From Candidatus Levyibacteriota bacterium (GTDB lineage: Bacteria > Patescibacteriota > Microgenomatia > Levybacterales > UBA12049), in NCBI GenBank assembly GCA_038254115.1, contig JBBSGK010000001.1, forward strand, positions 2,713-66,712: a DNA stretch of 64,000 nt, read 5' to 3'. The stretch's first letter is position 1; every line of letters starts with the position of its first letter. A model generated the notes under the pieces. That model was not told the DNA's origin. It was given only the letters and a program-made list of their open reading frames with translations, and made no database searches. A program made the translations under genes and the position numbers. Shown here piece after piece: positions 44,003 to 62,971 of this stretch.

Positions 44003-44070
44003 TTGTTATTTATTTAATTTTTTATAAGATTAAAAAATCTTCATCAAATTTGTTTGTTTTGAGATTAAGC

Positions 44071-44712: not shown

Positions 44713-44752
44713 ACAAGTATTTTTCTTAGTTTAGCGTATCACATTATCTTGG

Positions 44753-44791
44753 ACTTGACAAGATTTGGCACTCATGGTATATTATTGCTAA
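44753..44791 (+). promoter_or_regulatory. sigma-A-type promoter (TTGACA-N17-TATATT) overlapping a CIRCE-like HrcA operator
   Basis: TTGGCACTC-N9-TATTGCTAA (44765-44791) resembles the CIRCE consensus TTAGCACTC-N9-GAGTGCTAA. The TTGACA at 44753 and TATATT at about 44776 would drive hrcA. Confidence 0.5.
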
Positions 44792-44805
44792 TCCAAATTA
44801 AGTTT

Positions 44806-45537: not shown

Positions 45538-45570
45538 TTCTGCAAAGCAGAATACTAATAACTAATAACA

Positions 45571-46083
45571 ATGACAAAGAAAAATGAAAAGAAAATAGAA
45601 GATATAGATGGAGCAGACGAGATTGATTCAGACGCAATTGTGGAAGAAGCAGGTGAAGAAGGTGATTCGGAAAGTGAAGATTTAAGGGTAAAGCTTGTGG
45701 AATTTGACAATAACTATAAAAGAGCGCTTGCAGATTATCAAAATTTGCAGAAACGGGTAAGTGAGGAAAGACGGGATTTGATATTGGCAGCGAACAAAGA
45801 TTTGCTCTTGCGAATTTTATCAGTTTTGGATACACTAGTACTTGCAAATCATCACGACGGAAGTGAAGGTTTGAAAGTCGCTATCAAGCAATTTTTGGAT
45901 GTATTGAAAGCGGAGGGAGTAACACAAATAGAAACGGCCGGAAAAGAGTTTGATCCTCATCTGATGGAGGCAGTAGCAATTGACTCAGGAGAAGAGAATA
46001 AAGTCTTAGAAGAAATGCGCTCAGGATTTGTATTGAATGAAAAGGTTTTGCGTCCGGCGCAAGTAAAGGTAGGAAAGGAATAA
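45571..46083 (+). CDS. grpE: nucleotide exchange factor GrpE
   Basis: It has an acidic N-terminus, a coiled coil …YKRALADYQNLQKR… and a GrpE C-terminal beta domain. Confidence 0.85.
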   Translation: MTKKNEKKIEDIDGADEIDSDAIVEEAGEEGDSESEDLRVKLVEFDNNYKRALADYQNLQKRVSEERRDLILAANKDLLLRILSVLDTLVLANHHDGSEGLKVAIKQFLDVLKAEGVTQIETAGKEFDPHLMEAVAIDSGEENKVLEEMRSGFVLNEKVLRPAQVKVGKE

Positions 46084-46089
46084 AATAAT

Positions 46090-48012
46090 ATGGGAAAAAT
46101 AATTGGAATAGATTTAGGAACAACAAATTCATGCGTTGCAGTAATGGAGGGTGGAAGTCCCAAAGTTATCCATTCGGCTGAAGGACGTAACACAATTCCC
46201 TCAGTTGTGGATCCGATCTCACACATTGTCGGTGATGTTGCAAAGCGCCAGATGGCTCTTAAGCCAAAAAGAACAATTTTCTCAATCAAGAGATTAATTG
46301 GGCGAAAGTTTAGCGATAAAACAGTTAAGGAAGATATCAAATGGCTTCCATACACTGTTAAGGCCGGGCGCGACGACATGGCAGTTGTTGAAGTTGAGGG
46401 GAAAACATTTACTCCTCAGGAGCTCTCAGCCCAAATTCTCCAAAAAATCAAAGCAGATGCGGAATCGTATCTTGGTGATAAAGTAACACAAGCTGTTATT
46501 ACAGTTCCTGCATATTTTGATGACAGTGAGCGTCAGGCAACCAAGCAAGCCGGTGAAATCGCGGGTCTTGAGGTATTGCGTATCATTAACGAGCCGACTG
46601 CAGCCGCGCTTGCATACGGACTGGATAAGAAAAACGCCCACACGATAGCAGTTTATGACTTGGGAGGGGGAACATTTGATATTTCTATTCTTGAGCTTGG
46701 AGAAGGCGTTTATCAAGTTAAATCAACCAATGGTGATACGCATCTTGGAGGAGATGATTTTGACCAAAAGATAATTAATTATCTCGCGGATGAATTCCAA
46801 AAAGAAAACGGAATTGATCTGAGAAAAGACCCCCAAGCGCTTCAAAGACTGAAAGAATCAGCAGAAAAAGCAAAAATTGAACTTTCAAGCAGTCAGGAAG
46901 CATCAATAAATCAGCCGTTTATTACCCAGGGAAAAGACGGACCGCTTCATCTTACCTTGAGTTTGTCCCGCTCAAAGCTTGAGCAAATCGTTGATGATCT
47001 GATCCAAAAAACACTAATTCCTTTAGAAAAAGCAGTCAAAGATGCTGGAGTTAAAGTGTCAGATGTCGAGGAAATTATTTTAGTTGGTGGAATGACCCGC
47101 ATGCCTAAAGTGGCTGAAGCAGTTGAAAAATTCTTTGGTAAAGAAGCCAACCGTTCAGTCAATCCTGATGAAGTTGTCGCAATCGGAGCCGCCGTACAGG
47201 CAGGAGTTTTGGGCGGTGAGGTCAAAGACGTATTGCTTTTGGATGTCACACCTTTGACTCTCGGGATTGAAACTCTCGGCAGTGTTTCAACTCCTTTGAT
47301 TGAGCGCAATACAACAATCCCGACCTCGAAATCTCAAACATTTTCAACGGCTGGTGATAATCAGACACAGGTTGAAATAAATGTTCTGCAGGGAGAGAGA
47401 CCAATGGCAGCAGACAATAAATCTTTGGGCCGATTTGATCTGCAAGGTATTCCTCCTGCTCCCCGTGGCGTCCCACAAGTAGAGGTCACGTTTGACTTGG
47501 ATGCCAACGGGATTTTGAATGTGTCCGCAAAAGACAAGGCAACCGGTAAGGAGAACAAAATCCAAATTACTGGGTCAACGGGGCTTTCAAAAGAAGAAGT
47601 TGAGAAAATGACCAAGGATGCTGAGGTAAATGCCAAAGAGGATGAGGAGAAAAAAGGAAAAATAGAAGCACGCAATCACGCGGATTCACTTATCTTTACT
47701 TCTGAAAAATCGCTGAAGGACGCAGGCGATAAATTAGCAGAAGATATCAAAAAAGAAGTTGAGGAAAAGATCAAAGCCCTAAAAGATATTTTGGATAGTG
47801 GTGCAAAAGAGGAATTGGAATCAAAAACCAACGAACTTTCAGAATCACTTCAAAAAATAGGGCAGGCTACATATCAAGAGGGACAAAAAGCGCAAGAAGA
47901 GCCGGAAATTGAGACAGAGGAAAAAGAGGGCAAAACGGAGACAGATGGTACAAAAGAGACAAAGGACAAAAAGGATAAAGACGAACCTGTTGAAGGGGAA
48001 GTTGTAGAATAA
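46090..48012 (+). CDS. dnaK: molecular chaperone DnaK (Hsp70)
   Basis: [14 protein letters not shown]…, …[12 protein letters not shown]… and …[11 protein letters not shown]… are Hsp70 motifs. Confidence 0.95.
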
Positions 48013-48077
48013 AGTTTGGAGTAAGTTGATCGCATTAATTTTTAGGCGCGGAAGCGTTTTTTTAGTATAATAGGCAT

Positions 48078-48941
48078 ATGGCAGACAAAGATTATTACAG
48101 TGTACTTGGAGTTTCCAAATCGGCATCGGCCGATGAGATAAAAAAGGCCTACCGCAAACTTGCCTTGGAATATCATCCTGACCGGAATAAAGGTAAAGAG
48201 GCAGGAGCTAAATTCAAAGAAGTGACCAAGGCCTACGAAGTCTTATCCAACGAGGAAAAAAGGAAAACTTATGATCAGGTGGGACATTCAGGTTTTGAGC
48301 AAGGAGGATTTGGCGGAGCAGGAGGACCAGCTGGCGGGCAGCAGGGCGGACAATATGGGCCATTTTCATATACCTATTCGGCAGGTGGAAATGGAGCAAA
48401 TTTTGACTTTGGAGGATTCTCGGATCCTTTTGAAATATTTGAGCAGTTTTTTGGCGGAGCGTCTCCATTCGGTTCGCATGAAAGACGGGATTCTTATTCT
48501 ATGAGAATTAGTTTTGATGAAGCAGTCCATGGCGCAGAAAAACAGGTAAATATAAAAGGAAAAAGTCAGAAGATAAAAATCCCCCAAGGCGTAGACCGCG
48601 GATCTCGCATAAGATTTGGTGATTACGACGTAGTAATAGATGTAGGTCAAAGTGATAAATTTGGACGTGAAGGATATAATATAGTTTCAGAAAAAGAGAT
48701 TTCTTTTCCTCAGGCAGCACTTGGTGGTGAGATGAAGGTTGAGACAATTGATGGGGAAGTAAAAATCCGGATACCTGCCGGTACACAGCCTGAGACTGTA
48801 ATCCGCCTCGCGGGTAGGGGGGTAAAGCATGTGCAGGGAAATGGGCGGGGAGATCACTATGTCAGGATAAAGATAACAATCCCCAAAAAACTAACACGTC
48901 AACAAAAAGAACTCCTGGAAAAGCTCCAAAACTCCACATAA
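48078..48941 (+). CDS. dnaJ: J-domain co-chaperone (type II DnaJ/CbpA-like, lacking the Cys-rich zinc-finger region)
   Basis: It has a J-domain with HPD (…YHPDRNKG…) and a G/F-rich linker. There are no CxxCxGxG repeats, but the C-terminal substrate-binding domains are present. Confidence 0.8.
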
Positions 48942-48992
48942 AAGTAATCCTATAATTGACAAAAGGCTCATAGTATGATATAAAACAGTTCT

Positions 48993-49691
48993 ATGGCAAT
49001 GGAAATGGAGGACTTAGCAGGAAGAGGTCGGGGTACACATCCTGTTTGGGCGAAAGAACTCGCAAGACTTGCCCGTCTTTTTAGAGAAGCAGGTGGGCCT
49101 GAACGCTTTCCTGTAGAGGAAGAGTTGGGCGCTAGGCAATTTTCTAAAGAGCAGATGGTAGGGTTAAAAGGAGTAGGTTTTGATTTTTTTGTAGACATAG
49201 AGTCAAAAACCGTTGAGCAGTTATTGGAGGAAGCGCCTGGACGCATTAAAAAAGGTGATAAACGTATGAAGTTGCCGGCCGGATCGCCTAAAGTTCGTAA
49301 TGTTGCCGTACGAACAGCAGGGTTAGTTATCCCTGGTAGCAATAACTTGTCATTCCACCAGCAAAGTGAGAAATTAGCAGAGTGGGAGCAGGAAATTAGG
49401 AGTAGGCAGTTGGAAAGAGGAACTCTTGATGGAGTTGGTTTTGGAATTGGACACCCTTCAGAGCATTTGCAGATTGATCTTGCCTATCAAAATGCAAATA
49501 GTGGGCTGCCTCTTTATTCAGAAATATTTGCATGCAGCGATTCCCCGGATGAGCCCAATGCTGATAATGCGATAATTATTGGGCGGATTGATCCTAATGA
49601 TCCGCCGACAATTTATAATGATCCCGGTGTAGCTCACCGCCGGGTTTATGTGGCTCCAGTTGCTTATCCACTCCCAGTATTAAGAAAATAA
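48993..49691 (+). CDS. hypothetical protein in a compositionally distinct, GC-richer segment
   Basis: It is a 232-aa ORF rich in Gly/Arg/Pro (…IDPNDPPTIYNDPGVAHRRVYVAPV…). The sequence is visibly more GC-rich than its flanks, which also produces a spurious antisense ORF at 48968..49342. Confidence 0.45.
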   Translation: MAMEMEDLAGRGRGTHPVWAKELARLARLFREAGGPERFPVEEELGARQFSKEQMVGLKGVGFDFFVDIESKTVEQLLEEAPGRIKKGDKRMKLPAGSPKVRNVAVRTAGLVIPGSNNLSFHQQSEKLAEWEQEIRSRQLERGTLDGVGFGIGHPSEHLQIDLAYQNANSGLPLYSEIFACSDSPDEPNADNAIIIGRIDPNDPPTIYNDPGVAHRRVYVAPVAYPLPVLRK

Positions 49692-49842
49692 TTACTTTTA
49701 TTTTTAGGTTTAAGATAGTTATTACACTCACAAAACTAAGAACTTCTGGAAAAATTCACTGATTAGTTACAAGGCGGATTTACCTCAATATTTATGTTAA
49801 GCATGCTTGTTTATTGAAGTATTTTTGTGCTACTGTTAAAGT

Positions 49843-50139
49843 ATGGCACTTTGCGGAGTAAACGAGGTAAGTACTGACTTTGGTTGTTTTAAAAATGATC
49901 CGATCGGATTTGTTCAGCAATTCTATGGTATTGGTTTGGCATTTGTAGGAGCTGTGTCCCTAATCGCAATCATCATCGGCGGTTATACTATCATGACATC
50001 GCAAGGTGATCCTCAGCGCGTGCGGTCAGGAAAATCCTGGATTTTTTACGCTATTGGGGGATTACTTCTTGCAATTTTTGGATTTGTTATTATTCAGACA
50101 ATTGCAGGGGGTATATTGAAGGTTCCAGGTTTTCAATAG
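49843..50139 (+). CDS. small two-TM hairpin protein with TrbC/VirB2-type pilin-like topology (tentative)
   Basis: It is 98 aa: hydrophobic helix YGIGLAFVGAVSLIAIIIGGYTIM, short polar loop TSQGDPQRVRSGKS, hydrophobic helix WIFYAIGGLLLAIFGFVIIQTIAGGIL. It lies 6 nt upstream of the giant membrane protein. Confidence 0.4.
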   Translation: MALCGVNEVSTDFGCFKNDPIGFVQQFYGIGLAFVGAVSLIAIIIGGYTIMTSQGDPQRVRSGKSWIFYAIGGLLLAIFGFVIIQTIAGGILKVPGFQ

Positions 50140-50145
50140 TTAGAT

Positions 50146-53100
50146 ATGAAAAAATTTCTGCCCGCTTTTTTATTAAGTATTAGTTTTTTTGCTATACTTT
50201 TCATTTTTCCGCATAAAGTTCATGCTGATCCCGTTACGATAGATAAAGCACCTGTTACTGCTGATGACAAATGGGTTATAGATCCTGAGGTCACATTTAT
50301 CGGTAAAAACGCAGCAAGGTCGGGTAATCTATTAAACTTCACACTTCTAAATTATCATTGGGTCTGCGTAAAACAGCTTCCTAGCGGACAGTGTGATGAT
50401 AGTAAAAATCCTATTGCCGCGGTCTGGTTAACAACCGTTACATATATCGTTGTACCGCTTCTTTTTGTAGTTATTCTTGCAACGGCAATCATAATTATTG
50501 TGACCCGCGGACGCAGTATTACCGTTATGCGTTTTCTGCCGCGGTTTGTTGCGGTTATCATATTGATATTTTTCTCTTTTGCGCTTCTTCAATTTTTCTA
50601 TCAATTTGTAGATGTAATTCAGGGATTTTTCCTGCGGTCTCATTCAGGAGCTTGCCCTCCTGACTGTATTTCGAATGCTGATTTGCTGTATGTAGGATGG
50701 AAATATCAGGATTTCCAAGGCCTTAGGTTATTGGGGGATAAAAATACAGAATCGGCTTTTATCACTCTACTTCTTACCAAATTAACAGCCCTTACTTACT
50801 TTGTGATGGTTGGATTACTTTTTCTTAGAAAAGTAATTCTTTGGCTTTTTATAATTGTATCTCCAATTTTTCCACTTCTTCTACTATATTATCCAGTTAG
50901 AAATACCGGTAAAATCTGGATTGGAGAATTCTTCCGCTGGTTACTTTATGCTCCACTATTTGCCATTTTTCTAAAAGGGCTCGTATCGTTATGGAGAGCA
51001 GGAATTCCACTAGTATTTACAACGGTTTCCCATAGCGACCCAAACCTTATTGTATACCCGACAGCCGTTAATATTCTTTTGGGCGGACCCAAAGAATTTG
51101 TAACCCTCGGCAATAGCATCAATCTCACAGAAACATTTGCTTTGTATGTCGTATCCCTCCTTATGTTGTGGGGAGTAATAATATTGCCATGGATACTTTT
51201 GCAGATTTTTCTTGATTATGCATCCAATTTGGGAGTTGGAGATAGCGCAGTAATGAAGAACATGATTAATATGGTTAATAATAGGCAGGGAGTGCCACCA
51301 TCTCCATCATCACATCCTCCTGCAGGCGGGGGAGCGACTATAAATCTTCCATTCACCAAGAAATTCAGTATGCCGGTTCCACCGAGCGCTCCGACCGGTA
51401 CAGCCCGGGAAATTCCTGTGTCTTCCTCTAAATTCTCAACAACCGCATTTATGCCATCGGCGCAGGTCAAGGCTCAGGTATTAACTCTTACGAACATGTC
51501 TCTTCCAACGATGCGCGATATTGCCAAATATGATACATCCCTCATATCCCGCGATAGCTCTACTAAGAAAGAAGCTTTGACTATCAGGGACAATCTTATC
51601 AAGATCGGCAATCCGGAATCGGCAACGTCAACCAGCGATAAGGAAAGATATGTTGAAATCCGGGAAAAACTAACACAGGAAAGTACTAAGGGAAATACTC
51701 TGGCAACATCTATTCTAAGCGCTGCGAGTACAGTTTCAAGACGAAGTAGTCAGGCATCAACATCTCAGATTAAGAGTATGCTTACTCAGATTGCCAATCC
51801 ACAAGCCGCGTCTGCTGCGGGAGCAACATCTGTTATCAACAGGGAAAAACTATCGAAGTTGAATGAATCCCTGACGAAAGAGAAAAAAGAAGGCAACACT
51901 TTGGCTGCTTCTATCCTTTCGGTAAACGAAAAAACATCCTCAGCCGAAATCGAAAAACTCCAAGAGAAGATATTGGATGCAAAGACAAAGGGAGAACCTG
52001 TTGGAGTACAGCTTGCAAATGCGTTACAGAAGAAAGAAGCATTGCCTCTTGCAAACAGAGTCCAAACTGTAAGTAAAGAAGACTACCAAGCAGTAAAGGA
52101 TATGTGGAAAGAGAATTACAAAAATCTTGAGGTTCCTCAAGGAATGGCAGGGACAAGGGAAGAATGGGTAAAGGATGATATAGCAAAGATAGACAGTATT
52201 ATCGGACTTTTGGATTCAAAGGATGATGAAAAGATTGCTCAGGGAATGGAAGAGGTCTCAAGCATTTTGCCTTTCCTTTTGGTTGGCGGTTTCTCACAGA
52301 CGGAAATTATTTCTTATCTTAAAGCCAAACAGGATGCTGCAAAAGAGGTAACTGTGGAATTGACGCAGGAAGAAGAAGATAAAGTTTCGGTTTCGGTAAA
52401 AAAGACCGCAACTGCCCAGCAGACTATGTCAGCAACTATCCCGGAGTCATCAGAAGATGATACAGATGGTTCGGATTTGAGTAACGCTTCTGCAAAAGCT
52501 GGCTCCAAGGTCATTCCTAATGCGTCGGTTGATATTTTAAATATGGCCAATCTTGAGCTGCCCAAATTAACAGACATCGTGAAATACGAAATGAGGCATC
52601 TTACAAAAGATAAAACCGAGTCTGAAAGAATAGAAAAAATGCACGGAGTGCTCGAGAGAATTGGAAATCCTGCATCTATTCAGTCTGAAGCGGAGCGGAA
52701 TCAATACGAGACTCTCCGTGAAAAGCTTGGGGAAGAAAGCCTAAGTGGCAATGCTACGGCATCCACAATTCTTTCTGCTGTTTCGAGGTTAACTCAGACA
52801 ACATCGGACATTGATGCGACTCTTGTTGAACTAAAAACAATCCTCAAACAAATTGCGAATCCACAAAACTTAGAGTCTAGTGAAGACCGTGATTATTACA
52901 CCCGGCTTCACCAATATCTTGAAAATGAAATTAAACAAAATAGTAGTACCGTTTCCCAAAGTATTCTTTCGGTAAACGACACCACCAAGATGTCAGATAT
53001 TCAAAATATTAAGGAACAACTGAGCATAGGTAATAATGCAGGAAGTCCCGCGCTTCCGCAATTGACGTCCGCAGTAAATGATGTTTCAAGAGCAAGGCAG

Positions 53101-53793
53101 TTGAGATCAGTGATCTCACAGATTCTTGCACCTGCTGAAATAAAATCGCAAGTTGATAAAAAGACCTATACAACTATCAAAAAATCAATAGACGATGCAA
53201 GTAAAAAGGGCGATTCTTTAGCTGCCTCATTACTATCAATCAATTCTAAAACTCCGGACATTGTCCTTACTCAAATGCACAAAAAACTTGTAGATGCAGG
53301 AAATAAAGGTGACGAAACGGCAAAGACAATTCTTGCGCAAGTTTCAGAACCACTCGCTTTATCCAGCGTAAGCCGTTTGCAGGAAGTAAAGCCTGAAGAA
53401 TACGAAGAGGCAAAAGAGCTATGGAAGAAAGCATATATGCAGTATTTTGTTCCCTCAGGATTTACAGAAGATGTTAAAGGAAGACTAGAATGGATAAATA
53501 ACGATGCCCTCGATATTGAAGACACAATTGGGCTCTTGCAGTCACCGGACGCAGAAAAGAAAAACACGGGACTAAAAAAAGTTTCAAGTATATTGCCATT
53601 CCTTCTTCTAGGAGGTTTCTCAACTTCTGAAATGATTCAATATCTTCAAACTAAACTGGATGCGGCAAAGGAAGCAATTACAGCTATAAATGCGGAGGAA
53701 GATAAATCAGTCCAGGTTGCTGTAAAAAAAGATGAAAAGGCTGAAGATAAAGCAATGAGTGAGGAAGTTCCTGATGAAGAAGAAAAGAAATAA
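50146..53793 (+). CDS. giant membrane protein with a signal peptide, an N-terminal polytopic (about 6-7 TM, VirB6/TrbL-like topology, tentative) domain and a roughly 830-aa hydrophilic C-terminal region built from repeated helical modules
   Basis: The signal peptide is MKKFLPAFLLSISFFAILFIFPHKVHA, followed by TM clusters through about aa 370. The C-terminal region contains two roughly 300-390-aa super-repeats, each with 2-3 copies of a roughly 75-aa module (…NP…K[DE][KR]Y…L…KGN.LA.SILS[VI]N[DE].T…) and a conserved roughly 90-aa end module (…WK..Y…VP.G…IGLL.S.D.EK…VSSILPFLL.GGFS..E.I.YL..K.DAAKE). Confidence 0.5.
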   Translation: MKKFLPAFLLSISFFAILFIFPHKVHADPVTIDKAPVTADDKWVIDPEVTFIGKNAARSGNLLNFTLLNYHWVCVKQLPSGQCDDSKNPIAAVWLTTVTYIVVPLLFVVILATAIIIIVTRGRSITVMRFLPRFVAVIILIFFSFALLQFFYQFVDVIQGFFLRSHSGACPPDCISNADLLYVGWKYQDFQGLRLLGDKNTESAFITLLLTKLTALTYFVMVGLLFLRKVILWLFIIVSPIFPLLLLYYPVRNTGKIWIGEFFRWLLYAPLFAIFLKGLVSLWRAGIPLVFTTVSHSDPNLIVYPTAVNILLGGPKEFVTLGNSINLTETFALYVVSLLMLWGVIILPWILLQIFLDYASNLGVGDSAVMKNMINMVNNRQGVPPSPSSHPPAGGGATINLPFTKKFSMPVPPSAPTGTAREIPVSSSKFSTTAFMPSAQVKAQVLTLTNMSLPTMRDIAKYDTSLISRDSSTKKEALTIRDNLIKIGNPESATSTSDKERYVEIREKLTQESTKGNTLATSILSAASTVSRRSSQASTSQIKSMLTQIANPQAASAAGATSVINREKLSKLNESLTKEKKEGNTLAASILSVNEKTSSAEIEKLQEKILDAKTKGEPVGVQLANALQKKEALPLANRVQTVSKEDYQAVKDMWKENYKNLEVPQGMAGTREEWVKDDIAKIDSIIGLLDSKDDEKIAQGMEEVSSILPFLLVGGFSQTEIISYLKAKQDAAKEVTVELTQEEEDKVSVSVKKTATAQQTMSATIPESSEDDTDGSDLSNASAKAGSKVIPNASVDILNMANLELPKLTDIVKYEMRHLTKDKTESERIEKMHGVLERIGNPASIQSEAERNQYETLREKLGEESLSGNATASTILSAVSRLTQTTSDIDATLVELKTILKQIANPQNLESSEDRDYYTRLHQYLENEIKQNSSTVSQSILSVNDTTKMSDIQNIKEQLSIGNNAGSPALPQLTSAVNDVSRARQLRSVISQILAPAEIKSQVDKKTYTTIKKSIDDASKKGDSLAASLLSINSKTPDIVLTQMHKKLVDAGNKGDETAKTILAQVSEPLALSSVSRLQEVKPEEYEEAKELWKKAYMQYFVPSGFTEDVKGRLEWINNDALDIEDTIGLLQSPDAEKKNTGLKKVSSILPFLLLGGFSTSEMIQYLQTKLDAAKEAITAINAEEDKSVQVAVKKDEKAEDKAMSEEVPDEEEKK

Positions 53794-53870
53794 ATTTACA
53801 AGTCAGTTTATGTAAATATGTTGACTTGTTATTTATCGGAATTTAGTATTTAATAGAAGATAATTGTATT

Positions 53871-56800
53871 ATGTTTGGAACTTTTTTTAATTCAAAAAAG
53901 CCGGACGAAGCAGATGCAAGCAATATTCCTGCCCAGCCGATAACGGATCAGAATCCACCGGTTGTCGGATTAGCGCAAGCTCCTGCTTCGGCGCCTTTAT
54001 CTCAAGAGCCTGTTTCCCCAAGTCCTGTGTCAACGCAAGCGCCCAATCATGATCTCAGTATTCAGAATTCAGCAGTTAACCAACAACCAGTGAGTGTCGC
54101 ACCTCAATCTATAAATAATCCGGCCGTGCGGGCTGATACATCGGCTCTTTCTCATCTCGATCCAAGGGCGGGACAAGTCCTAACACATGCGCAGGAGGAG
54201 ACAAAAAGGATTAAGCAGCAATTTATAGAGCCTTCTCAAATTATATTTGGTCTATTGTATGATGAGCAGGTTTATAAGCTTCTCTCCGAATTCCAAGCTG
54301 ATGGTGGAGCTCTTTCCAAAGAAATACAGTCGAAGGAAGTAATGGGAGTTTTTCGAAGCCAGCCGGCTCTCAGTAAAGTAGCGATGGCTGTTTTTGATCA
54401 GGCGTATAAAGATGCCAAAATGCGTGGATCAAACTTCGTAACACCTGAGGATTTATTGATAGTATTATTTGATCCGCAGTTTGGCGTATCCGGCTCTTTG
54501 GAGTCCCGCGGTCTTAAGAAAGAAGCAGTTGTTGAAAAAGTTTCAAAAAATCCCAATCTAAATTTTGGCAAAAAAACCATTCTTGAAAAATACGGAGTCG
54601 ATCTGAATGAAGAAGCAAGAGCGGGTAAACTTGATCCAATCGCCGGCCGTGACGAAGAAATTGACAGAATCATTCACATCCTTTTGCGTAGGACAAAAAA
54701 CAATCCGATTATAATTGGTGAGACGGGGGTTGGTAAAACCGCAATTGTTGAAGGATTAGCACAAAAAATAGTAGCAGGACAAGTTCCAAAAGATTTGGCC
54801 GAAAAAAGAGTTTTTCAGCTCGATGTTGCCTCTTTGGTGGCCGGGGCCTCTCACCGCGGAGAATTTGAAGAAAGACTAAGAGGAGTTATCAATGAAGTGC
54901 TGGGATCAGGCAACAAGATAATTCTTTTTATTGATGAAATTCACTCCCTCATGGGAACAGGTGAGGAGGGGATGAATGCTGCGAACATTATAAAACCCCA
55001 TCTTGCCAGAGGCCATTTACAGTTAATTGGCGCTACAACAACTATTGAATACAGAAGAAATTTTGAAAAAGATAAAGCTTTTGAGCGCCGTTTTCAGCCC
55101 GTTACAGCCGAGGAACCATCTGAGGAACACGCTTTTGAGATGCTTAAAGTTATTAGACCAAAGTATGAAAAATTTCACAAGATTACTATTTCTGATGATA
55201 CTCTGATGGAATGCGTGAAACTCTCCAAAAAATACATTGGGGAACGCTATCTACCAGACAAAGCTGTGGATTTGCTTGATGAAGCAGGGTCTGAGGTACA
55301 CCTTCAGGCGGATGAAGGTAAAAGAGGCGATAATCAGGTTAAAAAAACTGATATTGAAAAAGTGGTTAGCGGATGGACAGGAATTCCAATTACCAAATTG
55401 ACTGAGGATGAATCGGAAAAGCTTCTAAAATTGGAAGACAGAATACACCATAGATTGATAGATCAGATGGAGGCAGTTGTTGCTGTATCAGAAGCAGTCC
55501 GGCGCGGACGGATTGGTTTGGCTGCTGCTAACCGGCCGATTGCATCGTTCGTTTTCCTAGGCCCTACTGGGGTCGGTAAAACAGAGCTTGCTAAAACACT
55601 CGCCGAGCTTCTCTTTGGCCGTGATGATGCAATGGCAAGGCTTGATATGTCAGAGTATATGGAGAAGCATGAAGTGGCGAAGCTTATCGGAGCGCCTCCG
55701 GGGTATGTCGGATATGAAGAGGGAGGTCAATTGACAGAGGCGGTCAGGAAAAAGCCGTATTCCATTGTTTTGTTTGACGAGATAGAAAAAGCTCATCCTG
55801 ATGTTTTCAATATTTTGCTCCAGCTTCTTGAGGACGGACGGCTTACGGATAATAAAGGAAATACAATATCATTTAAAAACACTATTGTCATTTGTACATC
55901 AAACATCGGGAGCTCGCTGATTCAGGAAAAGCTTAGCCAGGTTGATTCCAAGGAGAAAAAATCAGCTGAAGAATCCGCAAAGACATTTAAAGAGCTCTCA
56001 GAAGTTGTCAAGCAGGAGCTAATCAAATTTTTCCGGCCTGAATTACTTAACCGTTTTGACGATGTTGTGATTTTCAAACCCCTTCTTCAGGAGCATATGG
56101 CAGGAATTGCCCGATTGGGAATTGCCAAAACAGCAGGTCTTCTAAAAGAGCAGGGATTTACTCTTCAGATTACCGAAAAAGGTGTCGCGCAACTCGCAAA
56201 AGACGGTTATGATCCGGTATATGGCGCCAGACCTCTTAGGCGTTTGATCCAGACAGCTATAGAAAATCCAATTGCTCTTGAGATCATTTCCAAAAAATTT
56301 GAGGCCGGGGATACTATCGTTGTTGATTACAATGATACCAACAATGAATTTACATTTTCCAAGGGTCAGGATAGTGTGAATGAATCGGAAAATCTAAAAA
56401 AGACACTCCTTGAGATAAATAACCCCGGCGCCATATCAGATACTGCCAAGAAAGATAAGTATACAAGACTTCATGATGAATTGGTTCCAGCAAGTAAACA
56501 GGGAGATAAACTTTCGGAAGCAATCCTTTCGGTAAACGAAGGCACATCTGATGAAGTGATTAAAAAAATATTGGAAGATCTGAAAATAGCGCAAAATAAA
56601 GGGAATCAGCTTGCGTCCGATATAATGGCCATAGTGGGTGCGGAAAATGTCAAAGAAGCTGAGATAACTCACGATGCAGCTCCGGTTACAAAATTTAAGA
56701 AAACCCTGCAACAGGTAATAAATCCTCTCTACCTTGCGGCACCGGGCAATAAAGATAAGTTTAGCGCATTATATGATAAGCTCACTACTGCAAATCAGGA

Positions 56801-57557
56801 AAATAATGCATTGGCAAAACCAATCTTATCAATCACAGACATAACTCCTGACTCGGATATACAGCAATTGAAAACTCAGCTTGAAAGTGCAAAGGCGCAA
56901 GGTGATCCTTTGGCGATTGAAATTTTAGATACTATTGAGGCAGGCATAAAAACAGAAGAGGTGGCAAAACTCAAAGAAACATTGCTTCTAATAGTTAATC
57001 CAATTAGCGCACAAATACCAATTGAGAAGGAGAAGTTTATTGCCTTGCATGATAAAATTTCTCAGGCCAGCGAAAAAGGCAACGCTCTGGCGGCATCAAT
57101 TCTGGCCATTAACGATACAACTTCAGACGATGCTTTGATTCAGCTTAAAAATCAGTTGGAGGCTGCATTGGCTCAGAATGATGAAGTAGCATTATTGGTA
57201 TTAAATGCCGAATCTGCGCCGGGTGTTGTAGATCAACCAACGCAGGAAAATCCTGAACAGGCTTATCCTTTTGGTATGGGTCAGCAAGAAGAGGCAGCTG
57301 CCACTCAATTAACTCCGGATCCCGCCGCTCAAGGGGCGGTTTTACAGGAAGGCACAGTTCCTCAACCAGTACCGGTTACTCCGTCTCTTAGCACGCCTAC
57401 AGTAGAACAACCAAGTGGTGGATCTGCTTTTCAGCCCCCATCTTCTACGCCACAGGCTGGTGTAAGCGCCGGGATGAGCGCGCTGAACGAGATTTTACAA
57501 AGAGACGCCGATCCTTTTGGTAATCCAGTTGAGCCCGAGGAGGAAAGGGTCAGATAA
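53871..57557 (+). CDS. atypical Clp/Hsp100 AAA+ ATPase with a low-complexity N-terminus, two Clp_N repeats, D1 and D2 domains, no M-domain, no ClpP-binding IG[FL] loop, and a roughly 400-aa C-terminal extension carrying the same repeat module as the upstream membrane protein
   Basis: The D1 Walker A is [16 protein letters not shown], the D2 Walker A is [16 protein letters not shown], and the sensor region …[10 protein letters not shown]… is present. The D1-D2 linker is only about 35 aa. The C-terminus has three copies of …I.NP……K[DE]K[YF]..L.D.L…..GN.LA..ILS[IV]N[DE].T.D…I..LK.QLE.A…GD..A..IL…. Confidence 0.8.
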
Positions 57558-57671
57558 GCTGCAGATCTAGTAAATAAATAAACCCCTTGTTATCAATACA
57601 ATATTTATGTAATATTAGCGCATACAAACCGCCTAAGTTTAATCTCTTGGTCGGTGAAAGGAGGTGAGTAT

Positions 57672-58130
57672 ATGAATAAAAATATTTTAATCGCATTGGT
57701 AGTTATCGTTTTACTCGTCTTGGGATTTGTAATTGTCAAAGGCAGCTCAAATAAAGCTGTTACGCCAACAGTTACACCTAGCGCAACGACTGAAAAACCA
57801 TCCAGCTCTCCATCTGCGATGGAAAAATCACCATCCAAGGAACCAGAGGCAATGTCTCAAAAAGAAGACACAGTTACATTGAGCGCAAGCGGTTTTGAAC
57901 CTGCAACAATCACAGTTAAAAAAGGAGATAAAGTTGTATGGGTAAATAAGAGTGGAGATAGCGCAACTGTTGATTCAGACAATCATCCAACTCATCTTCT
58001 TTATCCGCCCTTAAACATGGGTACTTTTGATGATGGGGCTAAGCATGAGTTAGTTTTTGATAAAGCAGGAACTTACACATACCACGACCATTTCCATCCA
58101 TCCAGACGAGGGAAAGTGGTTGTAGAGTAA
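57672..58130 (+). CDS. membrane-anchored cupredoxin-like domain protein lacking the canonical type-1 copper Cys
   Basis: A Shine-Dalgarno sequence AAGGAGGTG precedes the ATG at 57672. It has a TM anchor and a Pro/Ser/Thr linker. The C-terminal …TITVKKGDKVVWVNKSGDSATVDSDNHP…GTYTYHDHFHPSRRGKVVVE is a cupredoxin fold pattern with His but no Cys. Confidence 0.5.
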   Translation: MNKNILIALVVIVLLVLGFVIVKGSSNKAVTPTVTPSATTEKPSSSPSAMEKSPSKEPEAMSQKEDTVTLSASGFEPATITVKKGDKVVWVNKSGDSATVDSDNHPTHLLYPPLNMGTFDDGAKHELVFDKAGTYTYHDHFHPSRRGKVVVE

Positions 58131-58151
58131 AAAGCGTGCTAAAATGGGGCA

Positions 58152-61109
58152 ATGGCAGAGTACAAGTTAAATCCGGAGCAGCAGAGAGCTGTAAGTCATG
58201 GTAGTGGTCCTCTTCTTATAATAGCCGGTGCCGGAACCGGCAAAACAACTGTTATTACAAAGCGCATCCAAAATCTGATTCTTGAAAAAAAGGTTCCTCC
58301 CTCCAATATTCTTGCCCTTACATTTACTGAAAAAGCAGCTGCCGAGATGGAAGCGAGGGTTGATGAGATAATGCCTTTTGGCTATACACAGATGTGGATT
58401 GAAACGTTCCATGCGTTCTCAGATCGGATTTTGAGGCAAGAAGCAATACATATTGGTCTAAATCCCGGATTCCAGTTGTTAACTGAAGCTGAAAGTTTGC
58501 TTTTCCTAAGAAAACATTTATTTGAATTTGATCTGGAGTATTTCCGACCTCTTGGGAATCCGATGAAATTTCTACAGGGAATGCTCAATCACTTCGCCCG
58601 CCTTAAGGATGATGATATTAACCCTCAGCAGTATTTAAAGTATGCTGAGGAAATCCGAAATCCGAAATCCGAAATCCGAAATGATGATGAGATTAAGAAA
58701 ACACTGGAGCTGGCAAACGCATTTAAAAAATATGAGGATTTAAAGGCTAAAGAAGGCGTGATGGATTTTTCAGATTTGATAAGTAATACGCTTAAGCTTT
58801 TCAGAACACGTAAAAATATTTTGGCCGAATATCAAGAATTGTTCCAATACATTTTGGTTGATGAATTTCAGGATACAAATTACGCGCAGAATGAACTTGC
58901 AATACTTTTAGCCGGCGAAAAGAAAAATATAACTGTTGTAGGCGACGATGATCAAAGTATTTATAGATGGAGGGGGGCTGCTATATCCAACATGCTTCAG
59001 TTCAAATCTCATTTTTCTGATGCGGCAATAGTCACTCTTAATAAGAATTACCGCTCAACCCAGAATATATTGGATGCATCTTATAAATTAATTCAAAATA
59101 ACAACCCGGATAGGCTTGAGGTTAAAGAAAAAATTGATAAAAAGCTTGTGTCAGAACGCGAAATTAAAGGCACAGAACCAGAGTTTATCTATACAAATAA
59201 AGCAGAGGATGAGGCAGAGGAGGTCGCAAAAAAGATTATCGAACTTTCAAAATCCAATTACAAATATAGTGATTTTGCAATTTTAGTCCGTGCCAATGAC
59301 CACGCAACTCCTTTTCAGCGCTCTCTTGAGAGGCGGCGCATTCCTTATCAATTCTTGGGGCCTGGGCATTTATTTCAACAGTCGGAAATTAAAGATCTGA
59401 TTGCATATCTTCACAGTCTGGCAAATTTTGAAGATACAGCTTCTTTATATAGAGTAATTACCCTTCAGATTTTTGCTATAGAAGCGCGGGACATTGCCGC
59501 TATGCTTAACTTTTCCAAGAAAAATAATCTTTCTCTTTTTGAAGCTATGGAAAATGTTGAAGATTCCAGTTTGACCGCCAACGGCAAAGAGAAAATCAAG
59601 CGGATTACAGATATGATGAAACGTCATCTTGCTAAGGTTCCGAAGGAAACAGCCGGGCAAATTCTTTACTATTTCTTTGAAGATTCAGGTCTTTTGGGTC
59701 ATTATCTTGATCCGCAGTCTCAAAGGACTGAAAAAGAGGCACAAAATGTAGCCAAATTATTTGAAAAGCTACAAAATTTTGCAAGTAACCGGGATGATGC
59801 ATCTGTTTTTGCGGTTGTTGATTGGATAGATCTATCAATGGAGCTTGGTGAGAGTCCGCTTGCAGCTGACATCGACTGGACACAGAATAACGCAGTAAAT
59901 ATACTAACTGTCCATTCAAGTAAAGGTCTTGAATTTCCGGTTGTATTTGTCGTGAATCTTGTTATACAGCGCTTCCCATCACGTGACAGAAAAGAGCAAA
60001 TTCCGGTGCCGACTGATTTGATCAAAGAAATTCTCCCGACAGGCAATGAATCGCTTCAAGAAGAAAGACGGCTCTTTTATGTCGCAATTACACGGGCAAA
60101 AGATAATTTGTTTCTCGCGGCTAGTAAGTTTTATGGAGAAGCCAAAAGAGAGCGGAAACTTTCACCGTTTATCGCCGAAGCATTAGGTGAGGATGTAGTC
60201 AAAAGCATTATAAATAAAAAAATTAATCAGCCGCCTGTGCAACAGCTATCCCTTCTTGAGATTGTTAACGCAAACATTCAAAATACCTCTGAAAAACAAC
60301 AAGAACTATCAGCAATTAGACATCAGCCATTAGCAATTAATTATATTTCCTATTCACAAATTGCAACTTTTCTGACTTGTCCTCTTCATTACAAACTCCG
60401 CTATATTCTCAATTTTCCATCGCCTCCGGCGCCTGCATTAAGCTATGGAATTAGCGTTCATAGCAGCCTTCGTGACATTTTACTTTCTCAGAGAGCAGGG
60501 AGTAAGATTAACGACACAGAAGTAAAAAGTATTCTTAAAGAGAACTGGATAAATGAGGGCTACAGCAGCAAAACTCATGAGCTGCAAACATATGCACAGG
60601 CCGGAAAAATACTCGGTGAGTTCTGGAAAAATTATAAGAGCGATAAACCAAATACTGTGGGTATCGAAACACCATTTAGTTTTTGGTTAAAAAGCCTGCC
60701 TAACGGACAGGCAGGCCTGCCTGCCGGTAGGCAGGTAAAAGTTGGGGGCCGGATCGACCGTATTGACGCTTTAACTGACAAAAAAATTGAAATAATTGAT
60801 TATAAAACAGGAAAAAACATGTTGGATCCCAAAAAAGCAAAAGATGATTTGCAGTTGTCATTTTACGCGCTGGCGGCGACAGAAGTGCATGACTCAATTT
60901 TTGGAAAAGCACCTGATGAGGTTGTTTTGACTCTTCACTATCTAGAATCAAATCAGAAAGTATCAACCACCCGCTCAAAAGAAGAGCTTGAAATGGCAAA
61001 AGAAAAAATCTTGAAAATAGTTTCAGAGATTGAAACAAGTGACTTTAAGTGTACAGGGGGAATGTTCTGCAAAAATTGTGAATACAAGATGATCTGTCAG
61101 ACAGTTTAA
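58152..61109 (+). CDS. UvrD/PcrA-type superfamily 1 helicase fused to a C-terminal PD-(D/E)XK (RecB/Cas4-like, Cys-cluster) nuclease domain
   Basis: The Walker A is GAGTGKTTVIT. Helicase motifs include …VDEFQDTNYAQ… and …TVHSSKGLEFPVVFVV…. The C-terminus has …GRIDRID…IIDYKTGK… plus C-x-n-C…CxxC (CTGGMFCKNCEYKMIC). Confidence 0.8.
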   Translation: MAEYKLNPEQQRAVSHGSGPLLIIAGAGTGKTTVITKRIQNLILEKKVPPSNILALTFTEKAAAEMEARVDEIMPFGYTQMWIETFHAFSDRILRQEAIHIGLNPGFQLLTEAESLLFLRKHLFEFDLEYFRPLGNPMKFLQGMLNHFARLKDDDINPQQYLKYAEEIRNPKSEIRNDDEIKKTLELANAFKKYEDLKAKEGVMDFSDLISNTLKLFRTRKNILAEYQELFQYILVDEFQDTNYAQNELAILLAGEKKNITVVGDDDQSIYRWRGAAISNMLQFKSHFSDAAIVTLNKNYRSTQNILDASYKLIQNNNPDRLEVKEKIDKKLVSEREIKGTEPEFIYTNKAEDEAEEVAKKIIELSKSNYKYSDFAILVRANDHATPFQRSLERRRIPYQFLGPGHLFQQSEIKDLIAYLHSLANFEDTASLYRVITLQIFAIEARDIAAMLNFSKKNNLSLFEAMENVEDSSLTANGKEKIKRITDMMKRHLAKVPKETAGQILYYFFEDSGLLGHYLDPQSQRTEKEAQNVAKLFEKLQNFASNRDDASVFAVVDWIDLSMELGESPLAADIDWTQNNAVNILTVHSSKGLEFPVVFVVNLVIQRFPSRDRKEQIPVPTDLIKEILPTGNESLQEERRLFYVAITRAKDNLFLAASKFYGEAKRERKLSPFIAEALGEDVVKSIINKKINQPPVQQLSLLEIVNANIQNTSEKQQELSAIRHQPLAINYISYSQIATFLTCPLHYKLRYILNFPSPPAPALSYGISVHSSLRDILLSQRAGSKINDTEVKSILKENWINEGYSSKTHELQTYAQAGKILGEFWKNYKSDKPNTVGIETPFSFWLKSLPNGQAGLPAGRQVKVGGRIDRIDALTDKKIEIIDYKTGKNMLDPKKAKDDLQLSFYALAATEVHDSIFGKAPDEVVLTLHYLESNQKVSTTRSKEELEMAKEKILKIVSEIETSDFKCTGGMFCKNCEYKMICQTV
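58651..58682 (+). repeat. heptanucleotide microsatellite (AAATCCG)x4 plus a partial copy inside the helicase-nuclease CDS, followed by (GAT)3
   Basis: aaatccg aaatccg aaatccg aaatccg aaat encodes EIRNPKSEIRN. The unit length is 7, not a multiple of 3. Confidence 0.85.
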
Positions 61110-62964: not shown

Positions 62965-62971
62965 ACAAAAC

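What the first reader, a model, noticed from the sequence alone, without database searches (positions are those of the whole stretch)
49843..57557. Three-gene module: pilin-like two-TM protein, giant polytopic membrane protein and Clp-like AAA+ unfoldase sharing a novel roughly 75-aa repeat
Seen in sequence: two adjacent giant proteins of entirely different classes carry the same helical repeat module in long C-terminal extensions. One (50146..53793) is a signal-peptide-bearing polytopic membrane protein. The other (53871..57557) is a soluble double-ring Clp/Hsp100 ATPase. The module reads …I.NP…K[DE][KR][YF]..L…L…KGN.LA.SILS[VI]N[DE].T.D…I…L…, with at least 5 copies in the first protein and 3 in the second. 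A 98-aa two-TM hairpin protein with TrbC/VirB2-like topology sits 6 nt upstream. A shared repeat suggests a common docking partner or a direct repeat-repeat interaction that recruits the unfoldase to the membrane complex. This would fit a secretion/pilus-like or membrane protein-extraction machine. The type IV secretion analogy is inference only; no VirB4/VirD4 is present in the window. I do not recognise this repeat as a named domain.
Basis: partly seen in the sequence, partly recalled or inferred. Interest (0 to 1): 0.85.

Follow-up and report, generated by a model that had tools for sequence, protein, structure and literature searches.

The report
VirB6-like membrane protein sharing repeats with ClpB
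In a group of uncultivated ultrasmall bacteria (Levybacteria), a pilin-like gene and a secretion-system-type membrane protein sit inside the heat-shock chaperone operon, next to an altered ClpB unfolding motor that has copied the membrane protein's own novel helical repeat, which suggests (but does not prove) that the two proteins work together.

Summary
The three ORFs exist as described. A repeat profile built only from the Clp copies finds five copies in the membrane protein (184 bits; 500 shuffles reach at most 7.9). The repeat matches no Pfam or PDB family and is very rare: 146 clusters among 1.84 billion proteins.

- **Small protein:** a VirB2/T4SS_pilin-type hairpin.
- **ATPase:** derived from ClpB. 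It lacks the DnaK-docking M-domain and the D1 pore-loop tyrosine.

New context: in 80 Levybacteria species genomes the trio sits inside the heat-shock operon, in the order hrcA-grpE-dnaK-(dnaJ)-pilin-VirB6like-clpB. Only one subclade (21 of 63 full-length Clp proteins) has the repeats on Clp. They were acquired once and are positionally orthologous since.

Physical coupling of the unfoldase to the membrane platform is the best reading, but it is inferred. The side of the membrane on which the tail lies is unresolved. No VirB4 or VirD4 is nearby.

The parts
44755..44791 (+). Sigma-70-like promoter (TTGACA-17-TATATT, TG-extended) overlapping a CIRCE-like inverted repeat (TTGGCACTC-N9-TATTGCTAA). 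This is the likely HrcA-controlled start of the operon that contains the module.
   Evidence: It is the only CIRCE-like match in the window (expected 0.01) and the best promoter score in 44000-58300. Function is inferred.
44692..48941 (+). Context genes: hrcA (44692..45537, the true start is probably further downstream), grpE (45571..46083), dnaK (46090..48012) and dnaJ (48078..48941).
   Evidence: The same order is seen upstream of the module in 61-68 of 80 related loci.
49843..50139 (+). VirB2/T4SS_pilin-like protein with a two-TM hairpin. It has no leader peptide, two N-terminal Cys residues and a basic loop between the TM helices.
   Evidence: PF18895 at 21.6 bits (below the gathering threshold of 26.6) and NF045849 at 31.4 bits. 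30 of 30 orthologues match PF18895, best E = 6e-8. It lies immediately upstream of MP in 72 of 80 loci.
50146..50226 (+). MP signal peptide (aa 1-27, ...HKVHA|DP).
   Evidence: Sequence and hydropathy. Cleavage is inferred.
50227..51285 (+). MP VirB6/TrbL-like membrane domain (aa 28-380). It has seven long helices and conserved Cys pairs at 74/83 and 170/174.
51286..51501 (+). MP Pro/Gly-rich low-confidence linker (aa 381-452).
   Evidence: pLDDT below 50; sequence.
51502..52401 (+). MP tail block 1: anchor LPTMRDIAKY (51502..51531), repeat R1 (51571..51756, short), repeat R2 (51757..52041, long) and END module 1 (52054..52401).
   Evidence: The AF2 model is all-helical with pLDDT 69.9.
52552..53700 (+). 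MP tail block 2: anchor LPKLTDIVKY (52558..52587), repeats R3 (52627..52818, short), R4 (52819..53088) and R5 (53089..53361), and END module 2 (53374..53700). An acidic tail follows to 53790.
53871..54155 (+). Clp N-terminal Pro/Gln/Ser-rich disordered extension (aa 1-95).
   Evidence: Sequence. Poorly conserved, 30-39% identity to orthologues.
54156..56360 (+). ClpB-derived core: Clp_N domain, D1 AAA+ (Walker A GETGVGKT, pore loop SHR in place of KYR), no M-domain, D2 AAA+ (GPTGVGKT, pore loop GYVGY) and D2-small. It has no IGF/IGL loop for ClpP.
56382..57215 (+). Clp repeat array: three long copies (56382..56681, 56682..56957, 56958..57215), homologous and collinear with the repeat array of MP block 2.
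   Evidence: Positional orthologues occur in 21 other species. Identity to orthologues is 44-67%, against 27-48% for the flanking disordered regions.
57216..57557 (+). Clp C-terminal Pro/Gln-rich disordered tail, with the YPFGMGQQ motif and an acidic end.

Best explanation
**Shown.** This is a lineage-specific cassette of Levybacteria (Patescibacteria). It lies inside the heat-shock operon hrcA-grpE-dnaK-dnaJ and has three genes.
1. A VirB2/T4SS_pilin-type two-TM protein.
2. An 'extended VirB6'. It combines a TrbL/VirB6-fold membrane domain with a helical tail of about 800 aa. The tail is built of blocks: anchor motif, then 1 to n helix-turn-helix repeats, then an END module.
3. A ClpB-derived double-ring AAA+ unfoldase with intact Walker motifs. 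It has lost the M-domain, which is the DnaK docking and repressor element, and the D1 pore-loop Tyr.

In one subclade, which includes this genome, the unfoldase acquired a collinear copy of the VirB6 tail's repeat array. This happened once, and the array has been kept under constraint since.

**Inferred.**
- The VirB6-like oligomer, together with the pilin-like subunit, forms a membrane platform. In R388, VirB6 is the pentameric base that recruits VirB2.
- The MP tail faces the cytoplasm.
- The ClpB-like hexamer can no longer be targeted through an M-domain. It is tethered to the platform through the shared repeats. The tether is either repeat-to-repeat packing or binding to the site on MP that MP's own repeats bind, for example the END module that Clp lacks.
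- At the platform, Clp supplies ATP-driven unfolding or extraction. The substrate would be the pilin-like subunit or proteins to be exported or removed from the membrane. This role resembles what VirB4 or T4CP ATPases do in canonical T4SSs.
- The cassette is co-expressed with DnaK/DnaJ/GrpE under HrcA control.
For: - Repeat homology between the two proteins.
- Rarity and restriction of the repeat to the MP family and Clp tails.
- VirB6 fold and family.
- Pilin family.
- ClpB core without an M-domain in nearly all orthologues.
- Intact ATPase motifs and an altered D1 pore loop.
- Synteny in 80 species genomes: pilin immediately upstream in 72, Clp immediately downstream in 68, dnaK upstream in 68. 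In 15 loci the trio lies between dnaK and dnaJ.
- All 79 Clp repeats best-match the same-position repeat of another species' Clp, never their own MP.
- 14 of 15 repeat-bearing taxa form an exclusive bipartition on a DnaK tree.
- The repeats are better conserved than the flanking disordered regions.
- A CIRCE-like operator and a promoter lie upstream of hrcA.
- In R388, VirB6 is the base that recruits VirB2, and VirB4 is proposed to lever the pilin up (PMC9259494).
- Extended VirB6 proteins with large hydrophilic domains of unknown role are a recognised class (PMC12857230).
- VirB6 was reported as scarce in Microgenomatia, 'suggesting extreme sequence divergence' (PMC12102498).
Against: - No interaction was tested.
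- Tail topology is unresolved. A plain hydropathy count (signal peptide plus 6 TM helices) puts the tail outside the cell. In the R388 structure only two VirB6 helices cross the membrane (PMC9259494). The charge bias across 72 orthologues only mildly favours a cytoplasmic C-terminus.
- Two thirds of orthologous Clp proteins have no repeat, yet they keep the same gene order. The repeat therefore cannot be the general coupling device.
- clpB lies next to dnaK operons in other bacteria for purely regulatory reasons.
- Both AF2 models have moderate confidence (pLDDT about 70).
Confidence: 0.5

Rival explanations
1. Common partner, no direct contact. The helical repeat is a docking module for the Hsp70 system encoded in the same operon (DnaK, DnaJ or GrpE). 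On ClpB it replaces the lost M-domain as the DnaK-coupling element. On the VirB6-like tail it concentrates DnaK at the membrane platform. The two proteins share a ligand rather than binding each other.
For: - The M-domain, the canonical DnaK docking site, is missing.
- The cassette lies between dnaK and dnaJ in 15 loci and after dnaJ in 48.
- The MP and Clp repeat consensuses share 16 strongly conserved columns. This fits a shared binding function.
Against: - M-domain loss is clade-wide, but the Clp repeats occur in only about one third of species. Most of these ClpBs would therefore lack any DnaK-coupling element.
- The repeat has no detectable similarity to known Hsp70-binding modules such as TPR, the J-domain or the M-domain.
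- The shared conserved columns are mostly hydrophobic or helix-capping positions, which could be purely structural.
Confidence: 0.2
2. Neighbour-to-neighbour domain shuffling without functional coupling. The MP tail is an extracellular or cell-wall-spanning helical stalk of an extended VirB6. An ancestral unequal recombination between adjacent genes copied the array onto ClpB. There it serves as a generic spacer, an oligomerisation element or a solubility element in the cytoplasm.
For: - The genes are adjacent and on the same strand.
- The Clp array is collinear with one MP block.
- A naive TM count and the R388 VirB6 architecture both allow an external C-terminus (PMC9259494).
Against: - The array has been kept with positional orthology and 44-67% identity across the clade, while the flanking disordered regions drift.
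- The repeat occurs nowhere else among 1.84 billion proteins. That is unexpected for a generic spacer.
- The pilin-MP-Clp order is conserved far beyond the repeat-bearing clade.
Confidence: 0.17
3. Ordinary parts, co-regulated only. The pilin-like protein and the VirB6-like protein are the divergent VirB2 and VirB6 of the normal Patescibacteria T4SS, whose VirB4 is encoded elsewhere. The Clp is simply the organism's housekeeping disaggregase. They share only a stress-regulated operon.
For: - VirB4-based T4SSs are widespread in Patescibacteria, including Microgenomatia, and VirB6 is reported as hard to find there (PMC12102498).
- In the Clp-repeat clade, related loci carry a Cys-rich protein with a T4SS_pilin domain divergent from hrcA.
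Against: - This reading does not explain why ClpB acquired and kept the VirB6 tail repeat.
- It does not explain why a T4SS pilin/VirB6 pair should sit between dnaK and dnaJ.
- No VirB3, VirB4, VirB8 or T4CP was seen in the window. No recurrent unexplained gene family was seen in the 20-kb loci.
Confidence: 0.13

Closest known systems
Extended VirB6 proteins (TrbL/VirB6 family, PF04610; structural reference TrwI of R388, PDB 7O3V)
   Same: - PF04610 matches in half of the orthologues.
- A large C-proximal hydrophilic domain, as in 'extended VirB6'.
- Encoded next to a VirB2-like gene.
   Different: - The window protein itself does not reach any Pfam threshold.
- No VirB3, VirB4, VirB5 or VirB8 nearby.
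- The tail is made of a repeat and an END module found in no other family.
- The gene lies inside the heat-shock operon rather than in a transfer or secretion locus.
Patescibacteria T4SS with VirB2-like pilin arrays (PMC12102498; Southlakia epibionticum work cited in PMC12857230)
   Same: - A monoderm CPR lineage.
- PF18895-type pilin-like proteins and a VirB6-like protein.
- A Cys-rich protein with a pilin domain nearby in related loci.
   Different: - The described systems are centred on virB4 and often lie near dnaA/dnaN.
- Here there is a single leaderless pilin-like gene plus a VirB6-like gene, flanked by dnaK/dnaJ and clpB. No VirB4 is within 10 kb in 80 genomes.
ClpB/Hsp104-DnaK bichaperone disaggregase
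   Same: - N-domain and two AAA+ rings with intact Walker A/B motifs.
- ClpB-type D2 with no ClpP-binding loop.
- Best PDB match is E. coli ClpB (675 bits).
- Encoded with the dnaK operon.
   Different: - The M-domain is deleted: the alignment jumps from ClpB residue 409 to 526.
- The D1 pore loop is SHR in place of KYR.
- It scores below the NCBIfam ClpB cut-off (858 against 1232).
- It has long disordered N- and C-terminal extensions.
- It has a C-terminal array of three repeats borrowed from a membrane protein.
ClpV/TssH of type VI secretion (an Hsp100 dedicated to one secretion machine)
   Same: It sets the precedent for a ClpB-like unfoldase that lost general disaggregase coupling and is targeted to a secretion apparatus by an appended or modified domain.
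   Different: - ClpV targets through its N-domain to the VipB sheath and keeps a middle domain.
- Here the appended element is C-terminal and homologous to the partner's own tail.
- The TIGR03345 score is 652, below its cut-off of 885.
- No T6SS genes are present.
VirB4 pilin dislocase/lever in T4SS pilus biogenesis
   Same: The proposed role is the same: a cytoplasmic hexameric ATPase acting on VirB2 subunits held at VirB6.
   Different: - A different ATPase superfamily branch (the VirB4 family against Hsp100 AAA+).
- No sequence relationship.
- The role is purely inferred here.

Membership tests
TrbL/VirB6 (PF04610) | Sequence match to the family profile | tested here: inconclusive
   The window protein has no Pfam hit at E <= 0.1. 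36 of 72 orthologous N-domains match with E <= 0.1, best 6.9e-6. Homologue P0119 scores 27.8 bits against a gathering threshold of 25.9.
TrbL/VirB6 (PF04610) | VirB6 fold: a bundle of about seven long, mostly hydrophobic helices | tested here: met
   [not shown]
TrbL/VirB6 (PF04610) | Encoded with VirB4 and the other T4SS inner-membrane components | tested here: not met
   No VirB4/VirD4-sized unexplained ORF is in the 64-kb window. None is among the recurrent families in the 80 loci of up to 21 kb. The rest of the genome was not available.
VirB2/TrbC / T4SS_pilin (PF18895, PF04956) | Small protein with two TM helices joined by a short basic loop | tested here: met
   Sequence: TM helices at about 28-51 and 65-88, with the loop SQGDPQRVRSGKS. 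The pattern is conserved in 30 orthologues.
VirB2/TrbC / T4SS_pilin (PF18895, PF04956) | Profile match | tested here: inconclusive
   The window protein scores 21.6 bits against a gathering threshold of 26.6. 30 of 30 orthologues match with E <= 0.01, best 6e-8. 2 of 30 also match PF04956 TrbC/VirB2.
VirB2/TrbC / T4SS_pilin (PF18895, PF04956) | Cleavable N-terminal leader, and polymerisation into a pilus | tested here: not met
   There is no room for a leader. The ORF starts 27 aa before TM1 and no upstream start codon exists. Polymerisation cannot be tested with these tools.
ClpB/Hsp104 | Two AAA+ modules with Walker A/B motifs, and no ClpP-binding IGF/IGL loop | tested here: met
ClpB/Hsp104 | Coiled-coil M-domain inserted in D1-small (Hsp70 docking) | tested here: not met
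   The alignment to E. coli ClpB skips chain residues 410-525. There are 41-43 aa between the LPDKAxD and WTGIP motifs in nearly all orthologues.
ClpB/Hsp104 | NCBIfam equivalog score, and the D1 pore-loop KYR | tested here: not met
   TIGR03346 scores 858 bits against a cut-off of 1232. The pore loop is SHR in 59 of 65 orthologues.
ClpA/ClpC (ClpP-coupled unfoldases) | IGF/IGL/VGF tripeptide loop in D2 | tested here: not met
   No such motif lies between SNIGS and FRPELLNR. TIGR02639 scores 695 against a cut-off of 993.
ClpV/TssH, ClpG/ClpK | Family-specific profile above its cut-off | tested here: not met
   TIGR03345 scores 652 against 885. ClpK scores 657 and ClpG 628, both against 1900.
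Named helical repeats (TPR, Sel1, HEAT, spectrin and others) | Profile or fold match for the repeat or the tail | tested here: not met
   [not shown]

The most novel reading that the evidence does not exclude
A ClpB-derived AAA+ unfoldase is the dedicated cytoplasmic motor of a minimal VirB6/VirB2 membrane machine that works without VirB4. The machine is wired into the heat-shock regulon. It would be a chaperone-powered device for assembling a pilus-like structure, or for extruding or extracting proteins across or from the membrane. The shared repeat would be the coupling element in one subclade.
Probability: 0.25. Interest if true: 0.9.

Novelty: new variant of a known kind. Interest (0 to 1): 0.72.

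Why it matters
- **T4SS biology in Patescibacteria.** T4SS components in Patescibacteria attract attention because they are essential for epibiotic growth, yet VirB6 was reported as nearly undetectable in Microgenomatia. This locus supplies a strongly conserved, very divergent VirB6/VirB2 pair for one Microgenomatia order. It also places the pair in an unexpected setting, the core chaperone operon.
- **ClpB biology.** The locus documents a natural ClpB lineage without the M-domain, the element considered indispensable for DnaK-coupled disaggregation. One branch of that lineage has taken up a domain from a membrane protein.
- **If the coupling is real.** It would be a new way of powering or servicing a T4SS-type membrane platform. 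It would also assign a role to the enigmatic hydrophilic extensions of 'extended VirB6' proteins.
- **Regardless of mechanism.** The repeat and the END module are two new, cleanly delimited domain families that are ready for profile building.

Tried and rejected
1. A word-indexed homologue search with Clp D2-small plus tail was swamped by generic Clp D2 fragments. It did not even return the query, so it said nothing about the distribution of the tail.
3. An MP homologue (P0022) appeared to be fused to an NRPS condensation domain, which would have argued for a cytoplasmic tail. It lies at the frameshift-ridden end of a long-read contig and is an artefact.
4. 'END-only' and 'repeat-only' hits of the exhaustive search could have been soluble stand-alone proteins. 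They are fragments that start at internal Met residues or at contig edges.
5. Weak hits to Ldt_C (PF17969, and NCBIfam LdtE) and to the 'Tri-helical' family did not recur when the eight repeat copies were scanned separately. They were dropped.
7. A midpoint-rooted DnaK tree did not show the repeat-bearing taxa as a clade. The unrooted test shows 14 of 15 in one exclusive bipartition.
8. Membrane-anchored M4 and S8 proteases downstream of Clp in many loci were considered as possible substrates. They have ordinary N-terminal signal anchors, so they give no evidence either way.
9. A profile of the full MP alignment against PDB sequences found only designed helical bundles.


Full report
**1. The observation**

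They are 49843..50139 (98 aa), 50146..53793 (1215 aa, called MP here) and 53871..57557 (1228 aa, called Clp here). All are on the + strand, and the first two are 6 nt apart.

I delimited five repeat copies in MP and three in Clp:
- MP: aa 476-537, 538-632, 828-891, 892-981 and 982-1072.
- Clp: aa 838-937, 938-1029 and 1030-1115.

The similarity is not an effect of composition:
- BLASTP with composition correction aligns the whole Clp array collinearly with MP 825-1069, at E = 2e-20.
- An HMM built only from the Clp copies finds all five MP copies (184.5 bits). The reverse test gives 152.6 bits. 500 shuffles of the MP tail reach at most 7.9 bits.
- Nothing else in the six-frame translation of the window carries the repeat.

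**2. Anatomy of the repeat and the tails**

Aligning 382 copies from related genomes shows the structure of the unit. It is a helix ending in I-A-N-P, followed by one or two homologous helix-turn-helix subunits of about 30 aa with the pattern 'x..L...L....KG[ND].LA..IL'. Subunit 1 against subunit 2 gives hhalign probability 97.5% and E = 7e-12. Short copies of about 60 aa have one subunit. Long copies of 87-90 aa have two.

The MP tail is two tandem blocks. Each block is an anchor motif (LPxxRDIAKY), then repeats, then an END module of about 110 aa. The END module is very well conserved (...ILPFLLxGGFS...YLKAKxDAAKE). Clp has only the repeats: three long copies, with no anchor and no END.

An AF2 model of block 1 is all-helical with pLDDT 69.9.

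**3. Is the repeat a known domain?**

It is not:
- Pfam and NCBIfam give nothing for MP beyond noise.
- The eight copies scanned one by one at E <= 10 share no family.
- A repeat profile against all PDB sequences gives a best E of 0.041.

An exhaustive profile search of 1.84 billion representative proteins finds only 146 clusters. They break down as follows:
- About 125 are MP-family proteins.
- Two contain a Clp core.
- The remaining short hits are fragments of Clp C-termini or of MP tails.
- One is junk.

**4. What the three proteins are**

*Small protein.* It has two TM helices joined by a basic loop. It scores 21.6 bits on PF18895 T4SS_pilin, below the gathering threshold, and 31.4 bits on the mycoplasma ICE pilin-like family NF045849. 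All 30 orthologues tested match PF18895, with a best E of 6e-8. Two also match TrbC/VirB2. It has no leader peptide.

*MP membrane domain.*
- The AF2 model has pLDDT 70.6 and seven long helices after the signal peptide.
- Foldseek's top hit is also the R388 complex.
- PF04610 TrbL/VirB6 matches 36 of 72 orthologous domains, and no other family recurs. One homologue passes the gathering threshold.

MP is therefore an 'extended VirB6'. This is a recognised class whose hydrophilic extensions have no known role (PMC12857230).

*Clp.* Its best relative with a solved structure is E. coli ClpB, at 675 bits. The alignment jumps from ClpB residue 409 to residue 526, which means the M-domain is deleted.
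- Both Walker A/B pairs are intact.
- There is no ClpP-binding loop.
- The D1 pore loop reads SHR in place of KYR.
- It fails the NCBIfam cut-offs for ClpB, ClpA, ClpV, ClpG and ClpK.

**5. Context and distribution**

MP has 635 detectable homologues, and those that carry an informative source name are labelled Patescibacteria or Levybacteria. A scan of one genome per GTDB species found relatives in 152 genomes, and I examined 80 loci. Many records carry wrong automatic taxon names.

Gene order is very well conserved: hrcA-grpE-dnaK-(dnaJ)-pilin-MP-Clp-(dnaJ)-(small ORF + second Hsp100). The counts over 80 loci are:

| Feature | Loci (of 80) |
|---|---|
| Pilin gene immediately upstream of MP | 72 |
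| Clp immediately downstream of MP | 68 |
| dnaK upstream | 68 |
| dnaJ upstream of the trio | 48 |
| dnaJ after Clp, so the trio sits between dnaK and dnaJ | 15 |

In the window, a strong promoter-like site overlaps the only CIRCE-like inverted repeat, just upstream of hrcA. The rest of the window is housekeeping, and no VirB4/VirD4-sized ORF is unaccounted for.

**6. History of the shared repeat**

- M-domain loss is clade-wide.
- Only 21 of 63 full-length orthologous Clp proteins carry repeats, 2 to 5 copies each. The others have only a Pro/Gln-rich tail.
- All 79 Clp repeats best-match the same-position repeat of another species' Clp, never their own MP.
- On a DnaK tree, 14 of 15 repeat-bearing taxa form one exclusive bipartition.
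- The array is 44-67% identical between species. The Clp core is 80-90% identical and the flanking disordered regions are 27-48% identical.

So the array was copied from an MP block once. It has been retained under constraint, and it is not being homogenised with MP. It is not an assembly artefact.

**7. Mechanism**

What is shown: a VirB2-like/VirB6-like pair and an M-domain-less ClpB form a conserved unit inside the chaperone operon, and in one subclade they share a private domain.

What is inferred: the VirB6-like oligomer and the pilin-like subunit form a membrane platform, and its tail and the Clp tail bring the unfoldase to that platform. The inference about the platform draws on R388. 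There, VirB6 is the pentameric base that recruits VirB2 through a TM helix, and VirB4 is proposed to lever the pilin up (PMC9259494). In this model Clp does an analogous job of extraction or unfolding. Clp lacks the END module that every MP block has, so Clp repeats docking on MP's END is one concrete and testable version.

The main weakness is topology:
- A plain hydropathy count (signal peptide plus six TM helices) puts the tail outside the cell.
- AF2 merges two predicted TM helices into one 51-residue helix. That gives five passes and a cytoplasmic tail.
- Charge bias over 72 orthologues mildly favours a cytoplasmic C-terminus: +1.3 and +2.7 after the last helix.
- In R388 only two VirB6 helices actually cross the membrane.

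I put the tail in the cytoplasm at roughly 2:1. The main reason is that the same domain works in a protein that is certainly cytoplasmic.

**8. Rival explanations**

- The repeat may bind a common partner, most plausibly the co-encoded Hsp70 system, and so replace the lost M-domain.
- It may be a neutral or generic spacer copied between neighbouring genes, with the MP tail outside the cell.
- The pair may be the missing VirB2/VirB6 of a VirB4-based T4SS encoded elsewhere, merely co-regulated with chaperones. Note that VirB6 was reported as scarce in Microgenomatia (PMC12102498).

None of these is excluded. Each explains less of the retention, rarity and synteny data than the main model does.

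**9. Novelty and verdict**

I found no paper describing this linkage, an M-domain-less ClpB of this kind, or the repeat. The components belong to known kinds: VirB2-like, extended VirB6, and Hsp100. Three things appear to be new:
- the combination of these components;
- the placement in the heat-shock operon;
- the private shared domain.

I rate it a new variant of a known kind, with interest 0.72. There is a 25% chance that it is a genuinely new Clp-powered VirB6 machine.

Noticed in passing
window 48993..49691 (+): A 232-aa ORF lies between dnaJ and the pilin-like gene. It has no Pfam or NCBIfam match and is absent from all 80 related loci. It looks like a genome-specific insertion into the operon. 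A hairpin without a clear T-run sits near its 3' end (49623..49644), followed by a 151-nt gap.
   Followed up: partly
window 44755..44791 (+): A strong sigma-70-like promoter and a CIRCE-like inverted repeat lie inside the longest hrcA ORF, which starts at TTG 44692. The real hrcA start is therefore probably downstream. Orthologues are about 245 aa, against 281 aa here.
   Followed up: partly
L012:2875-4245 (-), and the same position in L003-L025: In the Clp-repeat clade, a Cys-rich secreted protein ending in a T4SS_pilin domain (PF18895, 37.3 bits) is encoded divergently from hrcA. The window has no such gene at that position.
   Followed up: partly
L031:17860-20604 (+) and most loci from L008 onward; window 57654..61109: Most related genomes carry a small ORF of 115-147 aa plus a second Hsp100 of about 800 aa after the first Clp. 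In the second Hsp100, Pfam detects no AAA domain in D1 while D2 is normal. In the window this position holds a cupredoxin-like protein and a UvrD/PD-(D/E)XK (AddA-like) helicase-nuclease instead.
   Followed up: partly
L031:15529-17808, L037:14951-16795 and 35 other loci: Membrane-anchored M4 (thermolysin-type) and S8 (subtilase) proteases with SdrD_B-like domains recur just downstream of the Clp gene. They have ordinary N-terminal signal anchors.
   Followed up: partly
window 54800-54830 (Clp aa ~316-318) and orthologues: The D1 pore-loop tyrosine of Hsp100 proteins (KYR) is replaced by SHR in 59 of 65 orthologues. None of the 65 keeps the tyrosine.
   Followed up: partly
window 57216..57557, and the Clp C-termini in L002-L081: The disordered Clp tails carry conserved short motifs. 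YPFGxGQQ follows the repeats. The C-terminal ends read ...DGTQMQPQN, or ...NAYNYSGIP..RP.NY.APQ.RQEE[IV]E, or, in this genome's group, ...G[MF]SALNE[IH]L..D....ES[DE]G..I. These may be partner-binding peptides.
   Followed up: no
window 16254..19028 (+): A phosphoketolase (XFP_N/XFP/XFP_C) is fused to a C-terminal CoA_binding_2 domain (924 aa). Its end overlaps the start of an AMP-binding (acyl/acetyl-CoA synthetase-like) ORF at 18980..20779.
   Followed up: no
L037:9929-13369: This is the only one of the 80 loci in which the extended VirB6 sits outside the heat-shock operon. It has no pilin, dnaK or Clp nearby, and it lies next to an inositol-monophosphatase-like gene and subtilases. It suggests a rearrangement in that genome.
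   Followed up: no
L082:8001-12797 (protein P0022): An apparent fusion of the extended VirB6 to an NRPS condensation domain lies at the end of a long-read contig. That contig also has a split dnaK and fragmented NRPS genes. The fusion is an assembly or frameshift artefact, not a real architecture.
   Followed up: yes
window 62942..64000 (+): An ORF running off the end of the window has weak similarity to the Clp core (47 bits, E = 3e-14) but no Pfam hit at 1e-3. It may be another AAA+ or related protein.
   Followed up: no
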